A DNA stretch of 64,000 bases, from the NCBI GenBank assembly GCA_002071485.1, contig MWFF01000127.1:310-64309 (forward strand), written 5' to 3'. Both the position numbers and the translations under genes were made by a program. Numbering within the stretch: the first letter of the stretch is position 1; every line of letters begins with the position of its first letter. The DNA is from Verrucomicrobia bacterium ADurb.Bin006. Its GTDB lineage: Bacteria; Verrucomicrobiota; Verrucomicrobiia; Limisphaerales; J093. Positions 3,233 to 21,646 of this stretch are shown one piece after another. The notes beneath the pieces are model-generated. The model searched no databases. It had not been told where the DNA came from and was given only the letters and a program-made list of their open reading frames with translations.

Positions 3233-6200
3233 ATGCCCTTCATGCAGCACTGTTTGGCCTTGTTGAGCGCTTGCCTGGCTGTCGAACTGACCCTCTGGTC
3301 GATCCGGGCCGACGTGGTTATGAACGAGATCCATCACTCGCCCGACGTGAAGACCGAGCCGGTCGAGTTCATCGAGCTCTACAACTCCGGCACCACAGAC
3401 GTCGACCTCTCGGGCTGGGCGTTCACGGCGGGAATCGACTTTGTCATCCCCAACGGCACCACGCTCCCCGCCGGCGGCTACCTCGTCGTCGCTCAAAACC
3501 CGTCCGCCTTGAAATCCAAGTTCGGCGTCGACGCCCTCGGCCCCTGGAAAGGCCGCTTGGCCGGTGAAGGCGAGAAGGTTGAGCTGCGCGACGCCGCCCG
3601 CCAGATCGTCGACAGCGTCGATTATCGACTCGGTTTTCCCTGGCCCACCGTCGGGGACGCGCCCGGCTACTCGATGGAACTGATTCATCCGGAGATCGAC
3701 AACGACCTGGGCGGGCATTGGCGCGCGTCGTTCGTCGGCGGCGGCCAGCAACAGAGCACGCTGCTGTTCGATGCCGGCGCCGAGTGGCGCGTTTTCAAGG
3801 GAACGCAACCCCCGCCCGCCAACTGGCGCGATCTTGCCTTCAACGACAGCACCTGGATCGGCGGCCCGGCGCCGGTCGGCTACGACCCCAGCGTTCGCAT
3901 GGGAACACCCCTCGACGACATGCGCAGCGGTTACCTCGACTTCTTCATCCGCCGGACGTTCCGGGTCGTCGACGCCGCATCGGTGACCTCGCTCTCCCTC
4001 GAGGCGCTCTACGACGACGGCTTCAAGCTCTGGATCAACGGCAACAACCTCCTGAACCTGGCCATGCCCAACGGCGAGGTGCCTTACAATCAAGCGGCCA
4101 ATCCCGCGCGCGAGAACAATGCCTATGATCGGCACGAGATTGCCCTGCCCCCCGGCCTGCTGCGCGAGGGTGACAACGTGATTGCTGTGCAGGTGGCCAA
4201 CAATAACCTGGGGTACAGTTCCGACGCGTTCTTCGATTGCCGCCTCCGGGCGACTGTGGGCCCCACCGGAATCGGGCCAACGCCCGGCCGGCTTAACGCG
4301 ACCTTCACCGCGCGCATCCCGCCCGCCATTCGCCAGGTCGAACACCAGCCGCGCCAGCCCGGCTCCGGTCGCCCTGTCCGCATCTCGGCAAAGGTCACCT
4401 CCGCTTCAGGGCTGGCCCATGTGACCCTCGAATACCAAGCGATCGCCCCGGGCAACTACATCGAATTGTCGGACGAGTCTTATGCGTCGACTTGGACCGC
4501 GGTGTCGATGAACGACGCCGGTCTCGAGGGGGATGCGCAGGCCGGAGACGACATCTACACCGCCACGCTGCCTGCATCTCTCCAACAGCATCGCCACCTG
4601 GTCCGCTACCGGTTCAAGGCGGCGGATTTGGCGGGCGTGAGCGTTTCCGCACCCTATCCCGACGATCCACAGCCGAACTTCGCGTATTTCTGCTATGACG
4701 GCGTCCCCGCCTGGACCGGCGCCGTCTGTCCCGGCGCCGCGGGCGCCCTCGGACGAACGTTCATCGTCGGCGAGGAGGAAATGAACCGCCTCCCGGTATA
4801 CCACTTGATTGCCAAGCGCAAAGCGGTCGAGGATTGCACCTGGTACGACCGTTCGCACGGGGACGAGTACTTCTGGCAAGGCACCCTCGTTTACGACGGC
4901 CGCGTCTACGATCACATCCACTTCCGCCCCCGAGGGGGCGTCTGGCGCTATGCCATGGGCAAGAACATGTGGAAATTCAATTTCAATCGCGGACACGACT
5001 TCGAGCCGCGAGACAACTGGGGACGAAAACTGAAGACGGCCTGGACCAAGCTCAATCTCGGCGCCAACATCCAGCAAGGGGATTATATGCACCGCGGCGA
5101 GCAGGGCCTCTTCGAAAGCGTCGGCTTCCGCCTTTTCCAACTCGTCGGTCTGCCGTCCATGCACACGATGTTCGTCCAGTTCCGCATCATCGACGCTCCG
5201 CAGGAAACCGTCCCCAACGACCAGTACTCCGGCGATTTCTGGGGGCTCTACCTGGCCATCGAGCAGCCCAACGGGCGATTTCTCGACGAGCACGGACTGG
5301 CCGACGGCAACTTCTACAAGATGGAAGGCGGCTGGGGCGATCCCAACAACATCGGCCCACTCGGCCCGACCGACTATTCCGATCTGCGGGATTTCATGAA
5401 CACGTACAACAGCCGCCCGCCCGAATCGTGGTGGCGCGCCAACCTCAACCTGCGCGCCTACTACGGTTACCAGGCCATCGTCCAGGCCATCCACCACTAC
5501 GACATCGCCGACGGCAAAAACTACTTCTATCACCGCGACCCCCAGACCGGGGTGTGGACCGTCGTTCCGTGGGACCTCGACTTGACCTGGGCCGACAACA
5601 TGTACCGGGGGGGACAGACGGGCGGTGACGAGCCGTTCAAGAGCCGCCTCCTCTCCAATTTCTCCACCAATCCCGCCTATCCCGCAATCGTACGGGAATT
5701 CCGGAATCGCGTCCGCGAAATCCGCGATTTGCTCTGGAATTCTGACGAAGCCTTCCGGCTGATCGACGACTACGCGCGCCTGGTCCGGGGTACGAACGCA
5801 GCTTCGATCATCGACGCCGACCGCGCCCAATGGGACTACAACCCGCTGATGAACAACAGCAGCATCGTCAACCTCAGCAAGGCGGGCACGGGACGTTTCT
5901 ACCAGGTGGGCACTCCCACCAGGGACTTCGCTGGCATGGTGCAACTCATGAAGAACTACGTCGGTTACCGCGCCACCAACGCTGCCTTCTCGCTCGATAC
6001 CATAGCCGACGAACCGCAGCGCCCCGCCCGCCCCACGCTCACATACATCGGCCCCGAAGGCTATCCGGCCAACCGGCTCCGCTTCCGCGCGACACCCTTC
6101 AACGGCAGCGCGTTAGCGGCCATCGAGTGGCGCGCCGCCGAGGTTTCCCGCGCCGGTCACCCGGCATTCGACCCCGCCCAACCGGGGGCCTATGAAATCA

Positions 6201-8302
6201 CCCCGGTTTGGGAGAGTGGACCGATCGCCGATCCCTCTCCCGAATACGCCCTGCCGCAGGTGGCCTGGCGCATTGGCCATCTTTATCGGGTGCGCGCGCG
6301 CTACCTCGATACCGCCGGGCGAGCAAGCAACTGGTCGCCTCCCATCGAGTTCACGCCCGGCCCATCCGACACCGCGGACGCGCTCGTGCAGCACCTGTGT
6401 CTTTCCGAGTTGATGTACAACCCGATCGGCGGCAGCGATTTCGAGTTCATCGAACTGCACAATCGCAGCCTCGACTTCGCGCTCGACCTGGGTGGCGCCA
6501 CGTTCACCGCGGGCGTCGACTTCACCTTTCCAAGCGATACCAGCCTCCCCCCGGGCGGCTACCTCCTCCTTACCCGCGCATCGACACCCGAGCAGCAGAA
6601 CGCCTTCCGCGCCTTCTACCAACTCGACGAGACCGTGGCCATCGTCGGCCCCTACGCCGGAGCCCTGGCCAACGAAGGGGAAACCGTGACCCTCAAGACA
6701 GCGCCCAACGGGACCACGATCTTCTCGGTGAAGTACGGCGATGGACGTGGCTGGCCCCTGGCGGCCGACGGTGCAGGCCACTCGTTGATCCCCGAGACCG
6801 AAGCGGTTTCCGGACAGCGCGCCGGCTGGCTGGATTACGGCGGCAACTGGCGTGCCAGCACGTTCCTGAACGGATCGCCCGGGCGCGCCGATCCCGAACC
6901 GCCGCCAGGCCCGGTCATCAACGAACTCATGGCGCAAACCCATCTGACCGATCCGCGGTATCCCCAATACGACTCGAACGATTGGATCGAACTGCACAAT
7001 GCCGGCCCCCTCGAGGTCAATCTCGCCGGCTGGTATCTCAGCGACAATGCGGCTCAGCTCGATAAATGGGCCATCCCCGATCTCGACCTGCCGCCCGGAG
7101 CCTTCATTACCTTCGACGAAGTCACCGGGTTCCACACGCCCATCACATCCGGCTTCGGCCTAAACGGCACCGGCGAGGAGTTGTTCCTTTCCCATCTGCC
7201 GGGCGGGAACGAGAACCGGGTGGTCGACGCGGTCCGGTTCAAGGGACAAGAAGAGGGATTCTCCTGGGGACGCGCATTGGACTTTCCGAGCCACTGGCGT
7301 CGTCTTGTGCCGACGCGTGGCGCGGCCAACCTCGAGGCGGACTGCGCGATTACGATCAGCGAGATCATGTACCACCCCTATGACAAACGGGAGGGCACAG
7401 ACCTCGTCGACAACACGGCCGATGAGTACGTCGAGTTGCACAACCCCGGCTCCGCGCCTGTCGCGCTCCACGACACCAACGGCGTCTGGCGATTGGACGG
7501 TGGTGTGAGATTCCTCTTCCCAACCAACACGATCCTCGAACCTGGCGCCTCTCTCCTCGTGGTCTCGTTCGACCCGGCGCATGCCGCCATTCTCGCCTTA
7601 TTCCGACAGAAGTACGGCATCGCCGGTCTCGATGTGGCGATTCTCGGGCCCTATGCGGGAACACTCGGCAATGCAACCGACCGCGTTGCCATCGAGAAAC
7701 CGCTGGCCCGGAAGACCCCCGACGATCCGCCTGCATGGGCCATCCTGGATGAAGTGATCTACGGCAGCGGATGGCCGTGGCCGCAGGCGTGGCCTGCTGG
7801 ACAAGGAGCGTCACTCCAACGAGTCGGCACGGGCACAGGCAACGCCCCGGACGCCTGGCGTCCCTGGTGGCCTACGCCCGGCTTCGACAACTTCAGAGAG
7901 TCGTTGTCCGATTTCGACGGCGACGCCTTGCCGGACTGGTGGGAGACGGAGATGGGACTCGACCCCCTGGACCCAAGCGGAGACAACGGTGTCGAGGGCG
8001 ATCCGGACGCCGATGGGCTGGCGAACTGGCTGGAGTTCGAGGGACGTACCGATCCGCGCGCCACAACGCTCCGGCTCTTCTCCATCGAGCGCCTGGAGGC
8101 CGGCGTGGAATTGCGGTTCAATCAGCCTGCTGGGTACGCGGTGCAACTCGAGGCAGCCAACTCGATCGAAGCCACAGCGTGGGAAGTCATTGTCAGCTTT
8201 CCCGGCCAGGCCTCCGCTCGCATTGCAGTCGCTACCGACCTGCCCCCCGGAGCAGCGTCCGCCCGGTTCTACAGGCCACAGGGTCAGCCCTTAAATCAAT
8301 AG
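3233..8302 (+). CDS. Secreted 1689-aa CotH-kinase-family protein with four lamin-tail domains and a C-terminal acidic Ca-binding-like repeat
   Basis: Signal-like N-terminus MPFMQHCLALLSACLAVE. LTD signatures are VVMNEIHHSP..EFIELYNSGTTDVDLSGWAF, LSELMYNP..FEFIELHN, VINELMAQ..DWIELHNAGPLEVNLAGWYLSD and ISEIMYHP..EYVELHNPG. The CotH core reads YLAIEQPNGRFLDEHGL..GNFYKMEG...HHYDIADGKNYFYHRDPQTGVWTVVPWDLDLTW. The tail reads DFDGDALPDWWE..DPLDPSGDNGVEGDPDADGLANWLE. Confidence 0.85.
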   Translation: MPFMQHCLALLSACLAVELTLWSIRADVVMNEIHHSPDVKTEPVEFIELYNSGTTDVDLSGWAFTAGIDFVIPNGTTLPAGGYLVVAQNPSALKSKFGVDALGPWKGRLAGEGEKVELRDAARQIVDSVDYRLGFPWPTVGDAPGYSMELIHPEIDNDLGGHWRASFVGGGQQQSTLLFDAGAEWRVFKGTQPPPANWRDLAFNDSTWIGGPAPVGYDPSVRMGTPLDDMRSGYLDFFIRRTFRVVDAASVTSLSLEALYDDGFKLWINGNNLLNLAMPNGEVPYNQAANPARENNAYDRHEIALPPGLLREGDNVIAVQVANNNLGYSSDAFFDCRLRATVGPTGIGPTPGRLNATFTARIPPAIRQVEHQPRQPGSGRPVRISAKVTSASGLAHVTLEYQAIAPGNYIELSDESYASTWTAVSMNDAGLEGDAQAGDDIYTATLPASLQQHRHLVRYRFKAADLAGVSVSAPYPDDPQPNFAYFCYDGVPAWTGAVCPGAAGALGRTFIVGEEEMNRLPVYHLIAKRKAVEDCTWYDRSHGDEYFWQGTLVYDGRVYDHIHFRPRGGVWRYAMGKNMWKFNFNRGHDFEPRDNWGRKLKTAWTKLNLGANIQQGDYMHRGEQGLFESVGFRLFQLVGLPSMHTMFVQFRIIDAPQETVPNDQYSGDFWGLYLAIEQPNGRFLDEHGLADGNFYKMEGGWGDPNNIGPLGPTDYSDLRDFMNTYNSRPPESWWRANLNLRAYYGYQAIVQAIHHYDIADGKNYFYHRDPQTGVWTVVPWDLDLTWADNMYRGGQTGGDEPFKSRLLSNFSTNPAYPAIVREFRNRVREIRDLLWNSDEAFRLIDDYARLVRGTNAASIIDADRAQWDYNPLMNNSSIVNLSKAGTGRFYQVGTPTRDFAGMVQLMKNYVGYRATNAAFSLDTIADEPQRPARPTLTYIGPEGYPANRLRFRATPFNGSALAAIEWRAAEVSRAGHPAFDPAQPGAYEITPVWESGPIADPSPEYALPQVAWRIGHLYRVRARYLDTAGRASNWSPPIEFTPGPSDTADALVQHLCLSELMYNPIGGSDFEFIELHNRSLDFALDLGGATFTAGVDFTFPSDTSLPPGGYLLLTRASTPEQQNAFRAFYQLDETVAIVGPYAGALANEGETVTLKTAPNGTTIFSVKYGDGRGWPLAADGAGHSLIPETEAVSGQRAGWLDYGGNWRASTFLNGSPGRADPEPPPGPVINELMAQTHLTDPRYPQYDSNDWIELHNAGPLEVNLAGWYLSDNAAQLDKWAIPDLDLPPGAFITFDEVTGFHTPITSGFGLNGTGEELFLSHLPGGNENRVVDAVRFKGQEEGFSWGRALDFPSHWRRLVPTRGAANLEADCAITISEIMYHPYDKREGTDLVDNTADEYVELHNPGSAPVALHDTNGVWRLDGGVRFLFPTNTILEPGASLLVVSFDPAHAAILALFRQKYGIAGLDVAILGPYAGTLGNATDRVAIEKPLARKTPDDPPAWAILDEVIYGSGWPWPQAWPAGQGASLQRVGTGTGNAPDAWRPWWPTPGFDNFRESLSDFDGDALPDWWETEMGLDPLDPSGDNGVEGDPDADGLANWLEFEGRTDPRATTLRLFSIERLEAGVELRFNQPAGYAVQLEAANSIEATAWEVIVSFPGQASARIAVATDLPPGAASARFYRPQGQPLNQ

Positions 8303-8308
8303 TCAGGC

Positions 8309-9313
8309 TCACCGTAATGCGCGTTCGATATCTGCCACGATCCGCTGAGCCTTCTCGTCCGTGGCCATCTGCTGACGCCAGCGCGACACCTGCTGGCTGA
8401 CGGCAGCGCCCGTTCCGACACCCAGGCAGCCGGCAATATCCCTCTGCGTCAAGCCGGCAAATCGCTGCAGCGCCCAGGCAGCGACCCCGCGCAAGACGGA
8501 GTTCCTCCTTCGCTCGGCGAACCGACCCGGTTCGACACCCAAGACCTGTGCGACTCGCTTGATAACCAATGACGCATCCTGTGTCGACTCGGTACGGCGA
8601 AAGGAAACGTCCTCCCGTCGGAAAGCCCGGGCCATAAGACTTCGATGCCGACTTTCTACGGACGCGTTAAACAGCTCCGATCCAACACTGAGCTTGGCCC
8701 GACGGTACAAGAGCGCGAATGTGGCGTCGTCCTCGACCAGGCCTGTTTCGACGAAGGACTGATAGACTTCTGCGGCCTCTGACATCCTGTCTCCGGAGAC
8801 CAGGGCGAGAATCGGTCCCTGGTCGAGGACAGACCAGGGATCCTCGAGTCCGACGTAGCTCCGATAACTGCTCCAGGGATACGCCCTCAAGGCCTCCAGC
8901 TTTGCCTGGATTGAAATCCCCAGCCATCGCTTGCCACTTACGGGATTGAGGTGGATGTAGCGGCTCAACCTCAACAGATATTCATTCCCCTCAACGAGCT
9001 GGGCCTTAAATCGCCCTTGTGTGAGGTGCCCAACTCGATGGTAACGCAAGTTGAAGTAGACCGCATACGCGGTGAGAAGGCGCCCCATAAAACGGCTCAG
9101 ATTCGCTCTCGGCGTGCCGATCAAAAGATGAACGTGATTCGGCATGAGGCATACCAGAAGCACTCGAACTGGATGCCCATCAACTGTCTCTTTTAACTGC
9201 CTGAGGAATCGTCGCCGATCCGTGTCATCGCGGAAAATGACGCGTCGCTCATTCCCGCGGAAACAGACGTGGTATACCCCTCCTTCAAGCAGGACCCTCA
9301 AAGGCCTTGCCAT
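8309..9313 (-). CDS. IS200/IS605-type Y1 (HUH) transposase-family protein with a C-terminal DnaA-domain-IV-like HTH; solo copy
   Basis: From the ATG at 9313: MARPLRVLLEGGVYHVCFRGNERRVIF..., HUH motif MPNHVHLLI, catalytic-Tyr region LSRYIHLNPV. The C-terminus VIKRVAQVLGVEPGRFAERRRNSVLRGVAAWALQRFAGLTQRDIAGCLGVGTGAAVSQQV resembles the DnaA C-terminal HTH. Confidence 0.8.
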   Translation of the reverse strand: MARPLRVLLEGGVYHVCFRGNERRVIFRDDTDRRRFLRQLKETVDGHPVRVLLVCLMPNHVHLLIGTPRANLSRFMGRLLTAYAVYFNLRYHRVGHLTQGRFKAQLVEGNEYLLRLSRYIHLNPVSGKRWLGISIQAKLEALRAYPWSSYRSYVGLEDPWSVLDQGPILALVSGDRMSEAAEVYQSFVETGLVEDDATFALLYRRAKLSVGSELFNASVESRHRSLMARAFRREDVSFRRTESTQDASLVIKRVAQVLGVEPGRFAERRRNSVLRGVAAWALQRFAGLTQRDIAGCLGVGTGAAVSQQVSRWRQQMATDEKAQRIVADIERALR

Positions 9314-9405
9314 GAGCCCAACGTCGCACGGTGCTGGCCTGTCGTCAACGCGTGGATTGCTGGCGTTCCGCAAACTTCTAACTTAAGGGCTGACCCTGCC
9401 GCGCT

Positions 9406-10197
9406 TCAGCGCAGCATGCTGGCGCGCTCGTTGATCCAGGGAACGTCGCGGGGCGCGATGTAGGCCCCGGACCAATTCTTGGTTATGGTCGCGGGATCCA
9501 TCCATCGTTTGATCTCGGCATGGCCGTCGGCAAAGCTCAGTCCGCTGGCCTGGTTGTGGTAGATCGCCGGCAGATTGCCCCATTGGTTGGGGCTGTCGAC
9601 CATGACCAGAAAATAGCCGTCGTCCACGCTCTCCTCCCGCTCGTCAATGAACACGAACTGAGTCGAGGGCTTGGTGATTTCGCTGAGCTTCTGGTAGGTC
9701 CACCACTTGTTCTTGATGATGTCTGTGTGCCAACTGCTGCCGTTCATGCAGCCGTTCATCGAGATGCTCCGGGTGCGCGGATACTTCTTGCCGCTGATCA
9801 CGACCAAGAACTTGTCGGCGGGGCACTTGTAGATGCCGAGCGACTGATTGTAGGGATAGAGCTTGCCGTGGGGCGGCATTAGGAGATTGATGTTCGTGCA
9901 GTCCCGAATGTTGATCGGGTTGCTGACGCTGATCCACCCTCCCACCCAGCCGTCCTCGGTGCCGTCGCCGTTGGCCACCAGATTGTCCTGATAGTCGTTG
10001 GCATACATCGTCCAGGCCAGACTGAGTTGCTTGCCGTTGTTGATGCAGCCGATGGCCGTCGCCTTGGTCTTGGCGCGGGACAACGCAGGCAAAAGCATGC
10101 CGGCGAGAATCGCGATGATCGCAATCACCACCAGCAACTCGATGAGCGTGAACCCAGCCTGACGCTCTTCAGCGGATCGACTGTACATTGCCTTCAT
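9406..10197 (-). CDS. Prepilin-type N-terminal cleavage/methylation domain protein (DUF1559 / H-X9-DG class)
   Basis: [46 protein letters not shown]..., with C-terminal ...[14 protein letters not shown]. Confidence 0.85.
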
Positions 10198-10426
10198 AGG
10201 TCGCTCGTCTTCACCTGTAGGCCGCTCCGCCACACCCCGCCTTGCCGAATCCCCTGCACGGCCGACGGCACTTCACACGCGGACATTGCCGAACACAAGG
10301 CGAACCGTAGACTCGAACCCGCGGATGCTCAAGGCCTAATCGCTGCCAAACTCTGTCGCCGGGAGATTCACCCGCCTCATGCGCCTGAGATCCTTGGCTG
10401 TCGATCGCCGATCGCCAACACCCGCT

Positions 10427-17167: not shown

Positions 17168-17992
17168 ATGCGCACTCACTCAGTCTCGCGTCGCTCGGGC
17201 AGTCGTCGGGAGTCCGCGTTCACCTTGATTGAACTCCTGGTTGTAATCGCCATCATCGCGATCCTCGCCGGCCTCCTGCTGCCGGCGCTTTCGAAGGCCA
17301 AACAGAAGGGCCAGGGCATCGCCTGCATGAACCACACCAAACAACTGGGGTTGGCCTGGATCATGTATGCCGATGAGAACAACGACAAACTGGTCATCAA
17401 CACCACCATCGACCTCACGCAAGCCAGTCGCACGAACAACTGGGTAGCGAACGTGATGGGGGCCAGCCCGCAGGAAGACACCAATACGGTTTATCTCACG
17501 CAGGGATTGCTGGCCCCCTACGTCGCCAAGGCGATCGGCATCTACCGCTGCCCCGCCGATCGCAGTCTGAGTGGCCCCCTCCCGGATGGCCGGCGCCTGC
17601 CGCGCGTCCGCAGCGTCTCCATGAACGCGTTCGTCGGGCCTTTCGACAAATCCAACCAACCCCTGATCTCGGGTTGGGCCCAGTTCATCCGAATGTCCGA
17701 CATGCCGAGTCCGTCGAGCATCTTCGTCCTCCTCGATGAGCATCCCAACTCGATCAACGACGGGTGGTATGTATTCTGCAACAACGGTCCCGACGGGAAC
17801 CTCTGGAGCGACATGCCAGCGAGCTATCACAATGGGGCGGCGGGTTTTGCTTTCGCCGACGGACATTCCGAGATCAAACGATGGCTGGCGGAGGTCACAA
17901 AGCGCGCCCGTTGGTCCGCTTGGCCGATTCCGACCGGCGCCGACCGCCGGGACTTCCTCTGGGTCTCCGAACGGGCGACGTTCCGGCGCTAG
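17168..17992 (+). CDS. Prepilin-type N-terminal cleavage/methylation domain protein (DUF1559 / H-X9-DG class), paralog 2
   Basis: [48 protein letters not shown]...[15 protein letters not shown]. Confidence 0.88.
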
Positions 17993-18977: not shown

Positions 18978-19007
18978 TTGACAGAATACTACCACGGTAG
19001 TACTACT
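18978..19007 (+). promoter_or_regulatory. Promoter with overlapping palindromic operator (putative BlaI autoregulation site)
   Basis: TTGACA at 18978-18983, then TACTACC-AC-GGTAGTA (18987-19002), overlapping a second perfect palindrome GTAGTACTAC (18998-19007). It sits 25-55 nt upstream of the blaI ATG. Confidence 0.45.
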
Positions 19008-19031
19008 GCGGTCGTCAAAGCGACATCTCGT

Positions 19032-19418
19032 ATGAGTCAGAACACATTTCATCGTCTCGGCGACCTCCAGTTGCGCCTCATGCAGTCGCTCTGGGCTCGC
19101 GGCGAGGCCAGCGTCGCGGAGGTCCACGCCACCCTCCCGGATGACGCGAATCTGGCCTACACCACCGTCGCCACCATGCTGCGAAAGATGGAGGCGCGCG
19201 GACTTGTCCGGCACCGGGTTGAAGGCCGGACCTTCATCTACTCGGCAGCCGTCGCCGAGGAGCAGGTCAGCGGCGGCATGGCCGAGCACGTGCTCGATCG
19301 CCTTTTCGGCGGCAGCGTCGAAGCGCTGGTCAGCCACCTGCTGACTCGCCGCGAAGTGAGCCGCGACGAACTCGCTCGCCTGCGGAAGCTGATCGCGGAA
19401 AGGAGCCACTCGTCATGA
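19032..19418 (+). CDS. blaI: BlaI/MecI/CopY-family transcriptional repressor
   Basis: MSQNTFHRLGDLQLRLMQSLWARGEASVAEVHATLPDDANLAYTTVATMLRKMEARGLVRHRVEGRTFIYSA is a winged helix of the penicillinase-repressor family. Its stop overlaps the next start (ATGA at 19415). Confidence 0.88.
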   Translation: MSQNTFHRLGDLQLRLMQSLWARGEASVAEVHATLPDDANLAYTTVATMLRKMEARGLVRHRVEGRTFIYSAAVAEEQVSGGMAEHVLDRLFGGSVEALVSHLLTRREVSRDELARLRKLIAERSHSS

Positions 19419-21646
19419 GCCCGCTGCCCACCACTGGACTTTGGCTGCAGACCCTGGGCCTGCTGGCCGCACAGAGCACCTTGTTGTTGGTCGTCGCCAG
19501 CTTCAGTCAGGGCCTCGCCCGCGCGCCGCAGAGCCGCCGTCGCTTCTGGTTGGCCGCGTTGGCCGGCGTGGCTTTGCTTCTGGCAAACTCCCTTGCAGGA
19601 CTCGACCGTCCCCTCGCCAGGCACTTCGCGGCCGGCGCGCCTTCCTCCCTGGGGGTCATCGTTCGTGGCAACTTGCCAGTGACGTCCGCACCGACCGGTG
19701 CGGACGCGAGTGAAACCAGCCTTCGGTCCGCCGCGGGCTTGCCCAGCGAGGCGCCGCCAACCCAGGTCGGTACATGTTGGCCGGCGTGGCTCTGGCTGGC
19801 GGGCGCTGCCGCCATCGGGCTCTGGTCGCTCGCGCCGCGAATCTGGCTGGCTTGTGTCGGTCGGCGCGCCCCCGCCGCCGAATCGCCGGAGTTCCAGCGG
19901 CGGATCCAAAGCCTCGCGGGGCGGCTGAACATCCGCCTCCGTGTGCGGGTGGTCTGGATGCCCCGGCTCGCCGGCCCGGTCGCTTTCGGCGTGGTCCGGC
20001 CCAGCATCGGGTTGCCGGCGGACTTCTGGACCGCGCACTCGGCCATCGAGCAAGACGCTGTGCTTGCGCACGAACTCGCCCACCTTGCCGCGCGCGATCC
20101 GTTCTGGCTCGCGCTGGCGGACGGACTGGCCGCGGTGCTCTGGTGGCATCCGCTGGTCTGGTGGGGGCGGCGGCAGTTGCGCGCCGCCTGCGAGTCGGCG
20201 GCTGATGAAGCGAGCCTGGTGGTCGAGGACGGTCCCGCAGTGTTGGCCGGCTGCCTGGTGGCGCTGGCCTCGCGCTGGCAGCAACGCGGTGTGCTCGGGT
20301 TGCTCGGCATGGCAGGATTCCGTTCCGGCTTGGGGCGGCGCGTGGAGAGGTTGCTGCATCTTCGCGGGCGCGACCAACCGTCGCTCCGCTGCCGCTGGCC
20401 GGGACTCGTGACCTCGCTGGGCGCCGTGGCGACTCTCGCGCTGATTGTGGCCGTGCCCGCACGGCTCTTCCCGGTGCAGGCCGCAAACCGGCCAGCGCTG
20501 ATCGAGGTCGTTGGCGACGCCCTTGCGCAGACGACGGTCTCGCCAGCCGCGTCTGCTCCGGCGGCCCGCAATGGACCGAGCGCCGCCGCTACCGATCCCG
20601 CCGCCGCCAGCGCCACACCTGGGGACGATGCGCAGGTGATGATCGAGGCCAAGTTCGTTGAGGTTTCGGCGGATGCGAATGTGCCGCTCAGTTTCGACTG
20701 GTATCTTGGCGATGTCCCGTCCTCGGATCCGGGAGTGCCGTCCGCAAGCAACTCGACCGGCCACGTTGCAACGATGACCGGCATCCTCACCGATCCCCAG
20801 TTCCGCGAAGTGATCGCAGCGTCGTCGAAGGCGGGCATGAACGGCGTGCGCGAGTTGCGCGGCGACCAACTACCCTGGCCGGGCCGCGACGCGACCAACG
20901 CGGCCAACATCCGCGTCACCGCCGCACAAGGCGCCACCGTGACTGGCATCCTCACCGACGCGCAATCTCGCGCGGTGTTGCGCGCGCTCGAACAGCGCGC
21001 CGGCGTGGACGTGCTCTCCGCGCCGAGCGTGGTCACCGTGAGCGGACGCCAGGCGCAGATTCAGGTCGCGGACATCCGGACCGTGCTGACCGGCATAAAC
21101 CCCGATGCCGTGAAGGTCCCCGGTGCCATCCCGGCCACCAATGCGCTGCCGTTTACCAGAACCGCCGTTCCGACCGGCCCCAGCCTCGATGTGATCCCGG
21201 TGGTCTCGTCCGACGGCGTGACGATCAACCTGACGGTCATCCCCACCGTCACCGAGTTCCTGGGCTATGACGAACCGCCCAAGGACTCCAAAGTGGAAAT
21301 CATGGAGAACGGCAAGGCGCGCCTCGTGGAGCTGCCGCTGCCGCGCTTCCGCGTGCGCCAGATGGAGACACAGGCGGCGATTCGCGACGGCCAGACACTG
21401 GTGCTGGGCGGTTTTCCGGTCGAGGAGACGCGTCACGCGAAGGACAAGGTGCCGGTGCTGGGCGACATCCGGCTGGTCGGGGGACTGTTCCGAAGTGAAT
21501 CGAAGTCCGCAGTGCGAAAACAGTTGCTGGTCTTCGTGACGGCTACAATCATCGACTCGGCGGGGAACCGGGTGAACGCATCGCCCGGAACGTCGGCGCC
21601 CGCCCATACCGCGCCGCGGTTTCCAGGCGAGGCCCCGGTCCCGTAA
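19415..21646 (+). CDS. BlaR1-type M56 metallopeptidase/sensor fused to a C-terminal secretin (GspD/PilQ-type) domain
   Basis: The N-terminal half is multi-TM with AVLAHELAHLAARDPFW (HEXXH). The C-terminal half reads VMIEAKFVEVS..., VLSAPSVVTVSGRQAQIQVADIRTV..., LDVIPVVSSDGVTINLTVIPTVTEF..., TLVLGGF..DKVPVLGDIRLVGGLFRS...LLVFVTATII, which is a secretin signature. Confidence 0.85.
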   Translation: MSPLPTTGLWLQTLGLLAAQSTLLLVVASFSQGLARAPQSRRRFWLAALAGVALLLANSLAGLDRPLARHFAAGAPSSLGVIVRGNLPVTSAPTGADASETSLRSAAGLPSEAPPTQVGTCWPAWLWLAGAAAIGLWSLAPRIWLACVGRRAPAAESPEFQRRIQSLAGRLNIRLRVRVVWMPRLAGPVAFGVVRPSIGLPADFWTAHSAIEQDAVLAHELAHLAARDPFWLALADGLAAVLWWHPLVWWGRRQLRAACESAADEASLVVEDGPAVLAGCLVALASRWQQRGVLGLLGMAGFRSGLGRRVERLLHLRGRDQPSLRCRWPGLVTSLGAVATLALIVAVPARLFPVQAANRPALIEVVGDALAQTTVSPAASAPAARNGPSAAATDPAAASATPGDDAQVMIEAKFVEVSADANVPLSFDWYLGDVPSSDPGVPSASNSTGHVATMTGILTDPQFREVIAASSKAGMNGVRELRGDQLPWPGRDATNAANIRVTAAQGATVTGILTDAQSRAVLRALEQRAGVDVLSAPSVVTVSGRQAQIQVADIRTVLTGINPDAVKVPGAIPATNALPFTRTAVPTGPSLDVIPVVSSDGVTINLTVIPTVTEFLGYDEPPKDSKVEIMENGKARLVELPLPRFRVRQMETQAAIRDGQTLVLGGFPVEETRHAKDKVPVLGDIRLVGGLFRSESKSAVRKQLLVFVTATIIDSAGNRVNASPGTSAPAHTAPRFPGEAPVP

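What the first reader, a model, noticed from the sequence alone, without database searches (positions are those of the whole stretch)
18978..21646. BlaI repressor coupled to a BlaR1/M56 sensor-protease fused to an outer-membrane secretin domain
blaI (19032-19418) overlaps the next gene by ATGA. That gene begins as a classical polytopic M56 BlaR1-type protease (AHELAHLAARD). In place of a penicillin-binding sensor domain it carries a full secretin C-domain: VMIEAKFVEVS, VLSAPSVVTVSGRQAQIQV, LDVIPVVSSDGVTINLTV, DKVPVLGDIRLVGGLFRS...LLVFVTATII. Ahead of the secretin domain is a duplicated TGILTD(P/A)Q(F/S)R(E/A)V segment. Secretins multimerise in the outer membrane, whereas BlaR1 proteases sit in the inner membrane. 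A single polypeptide would thus have to span the envelope, or be cleaved. It could act as an envelope-spanning signal device whose output is proteolysis of BlaI. Upstream there is a TTGACA box overlapped by stacked palindromes built from TACTAC/GTAGTA half-sites, a plausible BlaI operator.
Basis: partly seen in the sequence, partly recalled or inferred. Interest (0 to 1): 0.65.

Follow-up and report, generated by a model that had tools for sequence, protein, structure and literature searches.

The report
BlaI repressor with protease–secretin fusion sensor
A Verrucomicrobial two-gene switch pairs a BlaI repressor with a membrane protease that carries an outer-membrane pilus-channel (secretin) domain where the antibiotic sensor normally sits; the fusion is real and belongs to a large unstudied family, but what it senses is unknown.

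Summary
blaI (19032-19418) overlaps by ATGA an intact 743-aa ORF (19415-21646). That ORF holds a BlaR1-type M56 protease (HEXXH 219-223, EXXXD 260-264, four TM helices). After a 55-residue Ala/Pro linker it holds a complete secretin core (Pfam 1-169/169; AF2 and Foldseek match GspD, PilQ and BfpB).

It is not an assembly artefact. An identical protein occurs in another assembly. 34 species-level Verrucomicrobiota genomes carry the fusion as one ORF. At least 150 clusters at 50% identity exist.

The secretin half derives from the Verrucomicrobial type IV pilus secretin (PilQ/Amuc_1098 family). The window copy is the shortest form. Close relatives carry SecDF-P1-head, ExbD, TPR and N-domain modules between the halves.

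The suspected operator is real by comparison. Two tandem dyads lie between and over the -35 and -10 elements: ACTACCnnGGTAGT and ACTACTnnGGTCGT. The core box is exact in 55 of 73 blaI promoters (0.015 expected), and all 57 copies in 881 kb sit at blaI promoters.

Mechanism is inferred, not shown. The likely model is an autoregulated BlaI/BlaR-type proteolytic switch whose input is the state of a periplasmic or outer-membrane secretin module.

I rate it a new variant of a known kind, with moderate to high interest.

The parts
18978..18983 (+). -35 element TTGACA of the blaI promoter
   Evidence: Read directly. TTGAC is conserved at the same distance from the operator in most of the 73 homologous blaI upstream regions.
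18988..19001 (+). Operator dyad 1, ACTACC-AC-GGTAGT, inside the -35/-10 spacer
   Evidence: Exact match. ACTAC-N4-GTAGT is exact in 55 of 73 blaI upstream regions, against 0.015 expected in shuffles. All 57 exact copies in 881 kb of related loci lie at blaI promoters.
19001..19006 (+). Candidate -10 element TACTAC (TATTAC in most relatives), 17 nt after the -35
   Evidence: The spacing was read from the sequence and the position is conserved in the aligned promoters. It fails the strict E. coli-type scan, so it is inferred.
19002..19015 (+). Operator dyad 2, ACTACT-GC-GGTCGT, directly abutting dyad 1
   Evidence: One mismatch to the core box. The A(C/T)TACC-NN-GGT(C/A)GT column pattern is conserved. 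The right arm is GTCGT in 21 of 30 secretin-type loci and 2 of 26 other M56 loci.
19032..19418 (+). blaI, a 128-aa winged-helix repressor of the BlaI/MecI/CopY family
   Evidence: Pfam Penicillinase_R at E 2.7e-33. The best solved relative is M. tuberculosis BlaI 2g9w, followed by MecI and BlaI. The start codon is supported by the alignment of 73 homologous loci.
19400..19405 (+). AAGGAG ribosome-binding site for the M56 gene, inside the blaI 3' end. Together with the ATGA overlap it implies translational coupling.
   Evidence: Read directly. The coupling is inferred.
19415..20470 (+). M56 (BlaR1-type) membrane zinc protease module, residues 1-352. TM1 is about residues 9-31, TM2 45-63, TM3 121-140 and TM4 331-351. 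The cytoplasmic catalytic domain spans 141-330.
   Evidence: Pfam PF05569 at 85 bits. Hydropathy was computed. AF2 helices have pLDDT above 90. Foldseek hits S. aureus BlaR1 8exp-8ext.
20069..20083 (+). HELAH zinc-binding and catalytic motif (H219, E220, H223)
   Evidence: Invariant in 78 of 78 family members.
20192..20206 (+). EXXXD motif (E260-S-A-A-D264), the second BlaR1 active-site motif
   Evidence: Invariant in 78 of 78. The motif is named as a BlaR1 active-site motif in bioRxiv 10.64898/2026.08.03.742534.
20468..20632 (+). Periplasmic linker, residues 352-406. It comprises a juxtamembrane helix (RPALIEVVGDALAQ) and then an Ala/Pro-rich disordered stretch. It marks the site of the modules that are missing relative to close relatives.
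   Evidence: AF2 pLDDT is below 50 for residues 379-402. Composition is 18 Ala and 7 Pro in 55 residues. The alignment with P0002 and L002 shows nested in-frame gaps. dN/dS is 0.5-0.57.
20633..21565 (+). Secretin core, residues 407-717, of the PilQ/Amuc_1098 type. It has no N0-N3 domains, no S-domain and no signal peptide of its own.
   Evidence: Pfam Secretin 1-169/169. NCBIfam hits are Amuc_1098_fam and GspD. The family profile matches GspD structures at E 8e-31. Foldseek gives probability 1.0 over about 340 columns to BfpB, PulD, GspD and PilQ. The closest stand-alone relatives lie in PilM-Amuc_1100-secretin clusters.
20768..20932 (+). Clade-specific 55-residue insertion (about residues 452-506). 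It carries the first copy of TGILTDxQFRxV (455-466) and the VRELRGDQLPWPGRDATNAANIRV segment. The second, ancestral copy is at residues 510-521 (nt 20942-20977).
   Evidence: Stand-alone PilQ-type secretins have a single copy; the fusion clade has the insertion. The first copy is poorly modelled, with pLDDT below 50 for 440-474.

Best explanation
This is a self-contained, autoregulated two-gene BlaI/BlaR-type proteolytic switch in a Verrucomicrobiota genome.

**Repression (inferred from conservation).** BlaI dimers occupy two abutting dyads, ACTACCnnGGTAGT and ACTACTnnGGTCGT. The dyads fill the spacer and cover the -10 of the promoter TTGACA-N17-TACTAC, so they shut off blaI and the translationally coupled downstream gene.

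**The sensor protein (architecture shown).** The downstream gene encodes a four-helix inner-membrane M56 zinc protease with a cytoplasmic active site (HEXXH and EXXXD). The extracytoplasmic sensor position after TM4 is occupied by the pore-forming core of a type IV pilus secretin of the PilQ/Amuc_1098 lineage.

**Signalling (inferred).** The state of the secretin module is relayed through TM4 and the conserved juxtamembrane helix to the protease. That state could be oligomerisation, insertion into the outer membrane, engagement with the pilus or secretion machinery, or strain between the two membranes. The protease then cleaves BlaI near the position equivalent to MecI N101-F102 (here H102-L103) and derepresses the operon.

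**Output.** No other gene nearby carries the box. The main visible output is therefore the level of the protease-secretin protein itself, plus any distant BlaI-box promoters.

**This copy.** The window copy is the most reduced member of the family, with a 55-residue linker in place of several periplasmic modules.
For: **Architecture and intact ORF**
- The ORF, both domains and the ATGA overlap are confirmed.
- The predicted topology matches BlaR1: N-terminus out, an Arg-rich loop at residues 32-44 inside, the catalytic loop inside, and the C-terminus out. This rests on hydropathy, the AF2 model at pLDDT 81 and Foldseek hits to BlaR1 8exp-8ext.
- The catalytic motifs are invariant in 78 of 78 members.
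- The secretin core is complete and highly conserved.

**Selection**
- Both halves are under equal purifying selection. dN/dS is about 0.3 for M56 and for secretin against two relatives, with the linker more relaxed.

**Recurrence of the fusion**
- 88 clusters at 90% identity carry both Pfam domains.
- 34 single-ORF fusions occur in species-representative Verrucomicrobiota genomes.
- The best 150 clusters at 50% identity all score at least 562 bits, mostly as one stretch over the whole profile.

**Link to BlaI and the operator**
- blaI lies directly upstream in every one of the 73 loci that have upstream DNA.
- The operator is conserved: 55 of 73 exact against 0.015 expected. The box occurs only at blaI promoters, 57 of 57. 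The two-dyad layout sits over the -35/-10 region.
- The geometry TACC-NN-GGTA parallels the family box TACA-NN-TGTA, which also comes as two operators (PMC7253601).

**Origin of the secretin half**
- Its closest stand-alone relatives lie in PilM_2-Amuc_1100-secretin clusters. A. muciniphila PilQ (Amuc_1098) is outer-membrane located (PMC4960237).

**Link between M56 sensors and secretin machinery**
- Related M56 proteins carry only Secretin_N domains.
Against: - No experiment exists on any member of the family. The signal, BlaI cleavage and the location of the secretin half are all inferred.
- Stoichiometry is awkward. Secretins form 12-15-mers, whereas BlaR1 is a dimer.
- The window copy has only about 55 linker residues, at most about 150 Å by my estimate. 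It also lacks N-domains, so it may not reach the outer membrane.
- The L2 loop (residues 64-120), which contacts the sensor in BlaR1, is disordered and unconserved here.
- The MecI/BlaI N-F scissile pair is not conserved; the window has H-L.
- Nearly the same operator serves all PVC BlaI paralogues, so cross-talk or a different regulatory logic is possible.
- No regulated target beyond the operon was found.
Confidence: 0.55

Rival explanations
1. The secretin module is a periplasmic docking or sensing domain rather than an autonomous outer-membrane pore. It would co-assemble with, or bind to, the genuine PilQ (Amuc_1098-type) ring, or stay periplasmic. The switch would then report the presence or activity of the type IV pilus machine.
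For: - The secretin half is 40-45% identical to the pilus-cluster secretins of the same phylum.
- Sister M56 proteins carry only Secretin_N ring-building domains and no pore core.
- The window copy has a very short linker and no N-domains.
- Some members (P0005, P0039) lack the conserved KDKVPVLGDIPLLG motif.
Against: - The whole pore-forming core, about 310 residues, is retained and strongly conserved in most members. That is more than a docking function would need.
- No pilus genes lie near the operon in the window or in 35 related loci.
Confidence: 0.2
2. The polypeptide is processed. TM4 would act as an internal signal-anchor that signal peptidase I cleaves at VQA|A (residues 354-357). This would release an ordinary free secretin that travels to the outer membrane. 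The M56 part would serve only as a regulated export platform or an independent sensor-less BlaR.
For: - An A/V-Q-A|A motif follows TM4 in the window and its closest relatives.
- Sensor-less BlaR proteins exist and function in M. tuberculosis, M. abscessus and P. aeruginosa PvmSR.
Against: - The AXA-like motif is not conserved across the family; many members have LPNHG, LPKDS or FPSSRSEG instead.
- The hydrophobic stretch has full TM length, and the c-region is long and contains Arg.
- The M56 active site is cytoplasmic and cannot make this cut.
- Maintenance of the fusion in at least 150 diverged clusters argues for a function of the covalent link.
Confidence: 0.1
3. The window copy is a decaying remnant. 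Successive in-frame deletions removed the periplasmic modules and N-domains, and the gene no longer works as its long relatives do.
For: - There is a nested deletion series among close relatives: L002 1413 aa, P0002 876 aa, window 743 aa.
- The near-invariant Pro in GDIPLxG is Arg in the window.
- dN/dS of 0.3 is only moderate.
Against: - The reading frame is intact over 2.2 kb in a 64% GC genome.
- dN/dS is equal and well below 1 in both halves.
- All catalytic residues and nearly all near-invariant secretin residues are kept.
- The promoter and operator are perfect.
- An identical protein is seen in another assembly.
- Other family members of 720-790 aa (P0059, P0039, P0032) have similarly short linkers.
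Confidence: 0.08
4. The fusion is an assembly or sequencing artefact, that is, a missed stop or frameshift between two genes.
For: In three related assemblies the gene is broken. L001 has five pieces, L029 has an in-frame stop after M56, and L052 has a frameshift.
Against: - 34 independent genomes and many metagenomes carry it as one ORF.
- In L001 the neighbouring genes are fragmented as well, which points to indel errors.
- The secretin half has no start codon with a signal peptide of its own; TM4 supplies export.
Confidence: 0.02

Closest known systems
BlaR1-BlaI and MecR1-MecI of Staphylococcus aureus and Bacillus licheniformis
   Same: - The repressor gene is adjacent to an M56 protease gene.
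- The protease has four TM helices with a cytoplasmic HEXXH/EXXXD zinc protease.
- An extracytoplasmic domain follows TM4.
- A winged-helix repressor binds two palindromic operators over its own promoter.
- Structure and sequence match 8exp-8ext.
   Different: - The sensor is a secretin core, not an acyl-enzyme penicillin-binding domain.
- Gene order is blaI then protease, with ATGA coupling.
- There is no beta-lactamase or PBP2a target.
- The NCBIfam blaR1_generic score is 44 bits against a cut-off of 400.
- The operator half-site is TACC rather than TACA.
- The scissile N-F pair is not conserved.
Atypical BlaIR systems without a sensor domain (M. tuberculosis Rv1845c/Rv1846c, M. abscessus, P. 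aeruginosa PvmSR)
   Same: - These are M56 protease plus BlaI-type repressor pairs unrelated to beta-lactam sensing.
- They share the HEXXH and EXXXD motifs.
- M. tuberculosis BlaI is the best solved relative of the window BlaI.
   Different: Those proteins end soon after the membrane domain. This one carries about 390 periplasmic residues with a secretin core.
M56-TonB_C fusions of Bacteroides (B. thetaiotaomicron TonB1, TonB10)
   Same: An M56 protease is fused to a periplasm-spanning module that contacts outer-membrane machinery. A signalling role has been proposed, and the proteins are uncharacterised (PMC10350073).
   Different: The C-terminal module there is a TonB C-terminal domain that binds TonB boxes of outer-membrane transporters. 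It is not a pore-forming secretin.
PilQ (Amuc_1098) type IV pilus secretin of Akkermansia and Verrucomicrobiota
   Same: - The secretin core is the closest stand-alone relative at 40-45% identity, with shared motifs TGILTDPQFRxV, EFLGYD and KDKVPVLGD.
- TPR modules occur upstream of the core in long family members and in PilQ.
   Different: - The window protein has no signal peptide and no N-terminal TPR or N-domains.
- It is tethered to an inner-membrane protease.
- It has an extra 55-residue insertion with a duplicated helix segment.
- It is not in a pilus gene cluster.
- The NCBIfam score is 164 bits against a cut-off of 750.
Cell-surface signalling (FecA-FecR-FecI) and the secretin-induced Psp response
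   Same: The logic is shared: the state of an outer-membrane protein is relayed to an inner-membrane component, and regulated proteolysis or sequestration changes transcription. This comparison rests on my own knowledge; PMC7593790 is a review of regulated proteolysis listed, which I did not read.
   Different: Here sensor, transducer and protease would be one polypeptide, and the output is a repressor rather than an ECF sigma factor or PspF.

Membership tests
Peptidase M56 (BlaR1/MecR1 family) | Pfam PF05569 above the gathering score | tested here: met
   85.1 bits against 31
Peptidase M56 (BlaR1/MecR1 family) | HEXXH and EXXXD active-site motifs | tested here: met
   H219-E220-H223 and E260-D264 are present and invariant in 78 of 78 relatives
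Peptidase M56 (BlaR1/MecR1 family) | Polytopic topology with a cytoplasmic protease loop and an extracytoplasmic C-terminal domain | tested here: met
   Hydropathy and positive-inside distribution, AF2 helices, and Foldseek to BlaR1 8exr/8exp. This is a prediction only.
BlaR1/MecR1 beta-lactam sensors in the strict sense | C-terminal penicillin-binding (class D beta-lactamase-like) sensor domain | tested here: not met
   No transpeptidase or beta-lactamase domain is present. blaR1_generic scores 44 bits against 400 and MecR1 13.9 against 1200. The C-terminal half is a secretin.
BlaR1/MecR1 beta-lactam sensors in the strict sense | Signal-dependent autocleavage and cleavage of the repressor | not testable with these tools
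   This needs biochemistry.
BlaI/MecI/CopY repressors (Penicillinase_R) | Pfam PF03965 winged-helix plus dimerisation domain | tested here: met
   115 bits against 22.6. PDB relatives are 2g9w, 1sd6 and 1sd4.
BlaI/MecI/CopY repressors (Penicillinase_R) | Palindromic TAC-N-GTA type operators, usually two, over its own promoter | tested here: met
   Two dyads lie at 18988-19015 and are conserved in 68 of 73 loci at up to 1 mismatch. Binding itself was not tested.
BlaI/MecI/CopY repressors (Penicillinase_R) | Asn-Phe scissile bond in the dimerisation helix | tested here: inconclusive
   The aligned position is H102-L103. M. tuberculosis BlaI has H-F there.
Secretin superfamily (GspD/PilQ/InvG/pIV) | Complete C-terminal secretin core domain | tested here: met
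   PF00263 1-169/169 at 102 bits. The GspD model aligns from the IEAKFVEV strand. Foldseek gives probability 1.0 over about 340 columns.
Secretin superfamily (GspD/PilQ/InvG/pIV) | N-terminal signal peptide and periplasmic N0/N1-N3 ring domains | tested here: not met
   There are no Secretin_N or STN hits in the window protein. Residues 352-406 are helix plus disorder. Relatives do have an N3-like domain.
Secretin superfamily (GspD/PilQ/InvG/pIV) | 12-15-mer gated pore in the outer membrane | not testable with these tools
   Only a monomer model could be made.
Amuc_1098 family type IV pilus secretin (NF042912) | Full-length equivalog score and location in a pilM-Amuc_1100 cluster | tested here: not met
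   163.6 bits against 750, C-terminal part only. The window has no pilus genes.
Type II secretion secretin GspD (TIGR02517) | Equivalog score | tested here: not met
   113 bits against 351

The most novel reading that the evidence does not exclude
The protein forms a secretin ring in the outer membrane whose 12-15 subunits each stay covalently tethered to an inner-membrane M56 protease. This would be a one-polypeptide, envelope-spanning sensor. It would convert pilus or substrate traffic through the pore, failure of pore assembly, or mechanical separation of the two membranes directly into repressor proteolysis. That would be a new class of trans-envelope signalling, distinct from TonB-dependent cell-surface signalling, Rcs and Psp.
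Probability: 0.2. Interest if true: 0.8.

Novelty: new variant of a known kind. Interest (0 to 1): 0.58.

Why it matters
BlaI/BlaR1 is the textbook proteolytic antibiotic-sensing switch. How the extracytoplasmic domain controls the cytoplasmic protease is still being worked out.

This family keeps the protease, repressor and operator logic but swaps the sensor for an outer-membrane pore module. It does so reproducibly across a phylum. It therefore offers a natural experiment on how M56 proteases are gated.

It is also a candidate for a covalent inner-to-outer-membrane signalling link. In addition, it gives a first handle on the many unexplained BlaI/M56 pairs of Verrucomicrobiota and Planctomycetota, including relatives of Akkermansia.

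The conserved operator consensus (TTGAC-N5-7-ACTACCnnGGTAGTAyTACCnnGGTmGT) can be used at once to map BlaI regulons in these phyla.

Tried and rejected
- **Assembly artefact or chimera: rejected.** An identical protein occurs elsewhere, and there are 34 single-ORF genomes and at least 150 clusters.
- **Broken copies in L001, L029 and L052: examined.** L001 sits in an assembly whose neighbouring genes are also fragmented. I judged these to be errors or isolated pseudogenes, not the rule.
- **Conserved neighbour or target genes: none found.** All-against-all comparison of flanking ORFs in 35 loci found nothing conserved other than blaI.
- **Extra BlaI boxes: none found.** There are none in the window and none away from blaI promoters in 881 kb of related loci.
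- **Type II secretion or pilus genes in the window: none found.** Only prepilin-like N_methyl/DUF1559 proteins occur, which are common in this superphylum.
- **Other M56, BlaI or secretin copies in the window: none found**.
- **Signal-peptidase release of the secretin: kept only as a minor rival.** The motif is limited to the nearest subclade.
- **Strict sigma-70 scan: found no promoter.** The -10 ends in C, so the promoter call rests on conservation.
- **Literature searches: no paper on this fusion.** I searched secretin+BlaR1, peptidase M56+secretin, BlaR1+Verrucomicrobia and BlaR1+Planctomycetes.
I replaced it with nine representatives.

Full report
**1. What is in the sequence**

- A TTGACA lies at 18978-18983.
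- Two abutting 14-bp dyads follow: ACTACCACGGTAGT (18988-19001) and ACTACTGCGGTCGT (19002-19015).
- The blaI ATG is at 19032.
- An AAGGAG lies at 19400-19405.
- The blaI stop overlaps the next start as ATGA (19415-19418).

BlaI (128 aa) matches Pfam Penicillinase_R at E 2.7e-33. Its best solved relatives are M. tuberculosis BlaI (2g9w), MecI and S. aureus BlaI.

The next ORF (19415-21646, 743 aa) is uninterrupted. It holds Peptidase_M56 at residues 124-268 (85 bits, cut-off 31). It also holds a full-length Secretin domain at residues 524-714, covering model positions 1-169 of 169 (102 bits, cut-off 27.5). The GspD model aligns from residue 406, the VMIEAKFVEVS strand. The best NCBIfam hit is the Amuc_1098 type IV pilus secretin family. 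All of these score below the equivalog cut-offs because only the C-terminal core is present.

**2. Topology and fold**

Hydropathy gives TM helices at about residues 9-31, 45-63, 121-140 and 331-351. An Arg-rich loop lies at 32-44, and the HELAH-containing segment 141-330 sits between TM3 and TM4. This is the BlaR1 arrangement: cytoplasmic protease, with the C-terminal domain outside.

An AlphaFold2 model built on a 78-sequence family alignment has mean pLDDT 81.4. Both halves are above 90. The disordered parts are 79-112, 379-402, 435-474 and the last 20 residues.

Foldseek against the PDB matches the C-terminal half to secretins at probability 1.0 over about 340 columns. The hits are BfpB, PulD, several GspD, PilQ and InvG. 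The N-terminal half matches the S. aureus BlaR1 cryo-EM structures 8exp-8ext. The family profile hits GspD chains at E 8e-31 and BlaR1 at E 4e-5.

Between TM4 and the first secretin strand there is only a short helix (RPALIEVVGDALAQ) and an Ala/Pro-rich disordered stretch, 55 residues in all. The protein has no N0-N3 secretin domains, no S-domain and no signal peptide of its own.

**3. The fusion is real and recurrent**

- A 100% identical protein exists in an independent assembly. 88 clusters at 90% identity carry both Pfam domains.
- A scan of one genome per species returned 80 M56 loci. In 34 of them M56 and secretin lie in a single stop-to-stop ORF. Most are labelled Verrucomicrobiota, and one is labelled Akkermansia sp..
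- A profile search of 1.84 billion representatives listed 150 clusters at 50% identity. All score at least 562 bits, and most match the whole 889-position profile in one stretch, so the family is larger than 150 such clusters.
- HEXXH (H219, E220, H223) and EXXXD (E260, D264) are invariant in 78 of 78 members. So are many secretin positions. These are the motifs named as the BlaR1 active site in a recent preprint on an atypical BlaIR system.
- dN/dS against two relatives (L082 at 85% and L002 at 79% amino-acid identity) is about 0.3 in both halves and 0.5-0.57 in the linker.

Three related assemblies show the gene broken: L001, L029 and L052. In L001 the surrounding genes are fragmented too, which points to indel errors.

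**4. The window copy is the shortest form**

The nearest relatives differ from the window by nested in-frame gaps at the linker.
- L002 (1413 aa) has M56, then SecDF-P1-head, ExbD-like, TPR-like and N-domain modules, then secretin.
- P0002 (876 aa) keeps the ExbD-like module and a stub of the N3-like domain.
- The window protein keeps none of these.

Across the family the middle is variable. It can hold SecDF_P1_head, ExbD, TPR or thioredoxin-like modules, and some members have SLBB after the secretin. Most members have an N3-like domain just before the core (NDRxGxLxVRAT...PPQVxIEAKFVE). A sister group has M56 plus two Secretin_N domains and no pore core.

**5. Origin of the secretin half**

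Searching with residues 406-717 finds stand-alone secretins at 40-45% identity over the whole query. In two long contigs these lie in PilM_2 - Amuc_1100 - x - x - secretin clusters. This is the Verrucomicrobial type IV pilus locus. Its secretin in A. muciniphila (PilQ, Amuc_1098, 907 aa, with N-terminal TPRs) is the most abundant outer-membrane protein and was localised there by immunogold (PMC4960237).

The duplicated TGILTDxQ(F/S)RxV segment is real. The downstream copy (510-521) is the ancestral one, present once in stand-alone secretins. The upstream copy (455-466) lies in a 55-residue insertion that also carries VRELRGDQLPWPGRDATNAANIRV. This insertion is typical of the fusion clade.

**6. 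The operator**

I aligned the DNA upstream of blaI in 73 loci. The core ACTAC-N4-GTAGT is exact in 55 and within one mismatch in 68. Shuffles give 0.015 and 0.31.

The layout is constant: TTGAC(a), 5-7 nt, ACTACCnnGGTAGT, then directly A(C/T)TACCnnGGT(C/A)GT.
- Dyad 1 fills the -35/-10 spacer.
- The likely -10 (TACTAC here, TATTAC in most loci, 17 nt from the -35) is shared between the two dyads.

All 57 exact boxes in 881 kb of related DNA are at blaI promoters. The window has only these two.

The half-site geometry TACC-NN-GGTA parallels the TACA-NN-TGTA box of BlaI, MecI and CopY, which also usually comes as two operators (PMC7253601).

The box is not specific to secretin fusions. It precedes blaI genes paired with other M56 types in both Verrucomicrobiota and Planctomycetota. 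A possible specificity mark is the right arm of dyad 2. It is GTCGT in 21 of 30 secretin-type loci and 2 of 26 others (Fisher p = 2e-6, not corrected for phylogeny).

**7. Context**

The flanks hold housekeeping genes:
- a divergent methyltransferase and aconitase next to the operon;
- ClpX, Obg, NADH dehydrogenase subunits and RF3 further out;
- prepilin-like N_methyl/DUF1559 proteins.

No secretion or pilus machinery and no second M56, BlaI or secretin gene are in the window. In 35 fusion loci no neighbour other than blaI is conserved. The pair is a self-contained module.

**8. How it most likely works**

Shown:
- the architecture, topology prediction, catalytic motifs and conservation;
- the obligatory blaI partner;
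- the conserved double operator over the promoter.

Inferred:
- BlaI represses its own operon.
- The cytoplasmic M56 site cleaves BlaI. The aligned MecI N101-F102 position is H102-L103.
- Cleavage is controlled by the state of the secretin module through TM4 and the conserved juxtamembrane helix.

The nature of the signal is open. It could be assembly or insertion of the pore, engagement with the pilus machine, traffic through the pore, or strain between the membranes.

For the window copy the short linker makes reaching the outer membrane uncertain. My estimate is at most about 150 Å of reach. The long relatives have ample length.

**9. Rivals**

- A docking or co-assembly sensor on PilQ (0.2).
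- Processing at a signal-peptidase-like VQA|A site after TM4, which releases a free secretin (0.1). The motif is confined to the nearest subclade.
- A decaying remnant (0.08), argued against by dN/dS and intact motifs.
- An artefact (0.02).

**10. Comparison and novelty**

It works like a BlaR1/BlaI switch and passes the M56 and Penicillinase_R family tests. It fails the defining feature of a beta-lactam sensor because it has no penicillin-binding domain.

It contains a true secretin core. It fails the tests for a canonical secretin (no signal peptide, no N-domains) and for the Amuc_1098 and GspD equivalogs.

The closest analogues are sensor-less BlaIR systems and the uncharacterised M56-TonB_C fusions of Bacteroides.

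Four full-text searches found no paper on M56-secretin fusions. Database annotators have labelled some members with both names.

I rate it a new variant of a known kind, with interest about 0.58.

Noticed in passing
L002:4527-8765, L082:1029-3659 and window 20468-20632: There is a nested series of in-frame module losses among close relatives at 79-85% identity. The lengths are 1413 aa, 876 aa and 743 aa. SecDF_P1_head, ExbD-like, TPR-like and N-domain modules disappear step by step at the same linker position.
   Followed up: partly
window 19002-19015 and the aligned promoters of 56 loci: The right arm of operator dyad 2 is GTCGT in 21 of 30 secretin-type loci. It is GTAGT or GTAAT in most other M56 loci, where GTCGT occurs in 2 of 26. 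This may be a specificity determinant among BlaI paralogues that share dyad 1. It is not corrected for phylogeny.
   Followed up: partly
L031:1663-7825: One blaI is followed by two M56 genes in tandem. The first encodes 1001 aa without a secretin and the second a 945-aa M56-secretin fusion.
   Followed up: no
P0094-P0118 (for example P0094, 683 aa): A sister group of M56 proteins carries two Secretin_N (PF03958) ring-building domains and no secretin pore core.
   Followed up: partly
L053:4965-11679: A 2238-aa ORF has an M56 domain followed by several separate secretin-like stretches.
   Followed up: no
L001:8001-11744; L029:5853-9882; L052:1-2553: These are broken versions of the fusion. L001 has five fragments, L029 has a single in-frame stop right after the M56 part, and L052 has a frameshift. 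L001 looks like an indel-rich assembly. L029 could be a real split or a recoded stop.
   Followed up: partly
P0111 (1007 aa), P0105, P0073, P0062: M56 proteases of the same clade are fused to other periplasmic modules: WD40/beta-propeller repeats, a laminin-G-like domain, a thioredoxin-like domain, and SLBB after the secretin. The sensor position is highly modular in this superphylum.
   Followed up: no
L083:6496-9203 and L084:6519-9212: In the pilus clusters the secretin is called as a gene of about 400 aa, preceded by an overlapping or adjacent gene of 410-514 aa. This is probably one PilQ of about 900 aa split by gene calling or by frameshifts.
   Followed up: no
window 8309-9373 (-) and 9406-10233 (-): A 354-aa protein has an IS200-like Y1 transposase domain, which is long for IS200. 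It lies next to a prepilin-type N-methylation-motif protein.
   Followed up: no
window 3233-8302 (+): A 1689-aa protein has four lamin-tail domains and a CotH kinase domain.
   Followed up: no
window 17168-17992 (+): A prepilin-like N_methyl/DUF1559 protein lies about 1 kb upstream of the operon on the same strand. This family is abundant in PVC genomes, and no link to the secretin fusion was shown.
   Followed up: no
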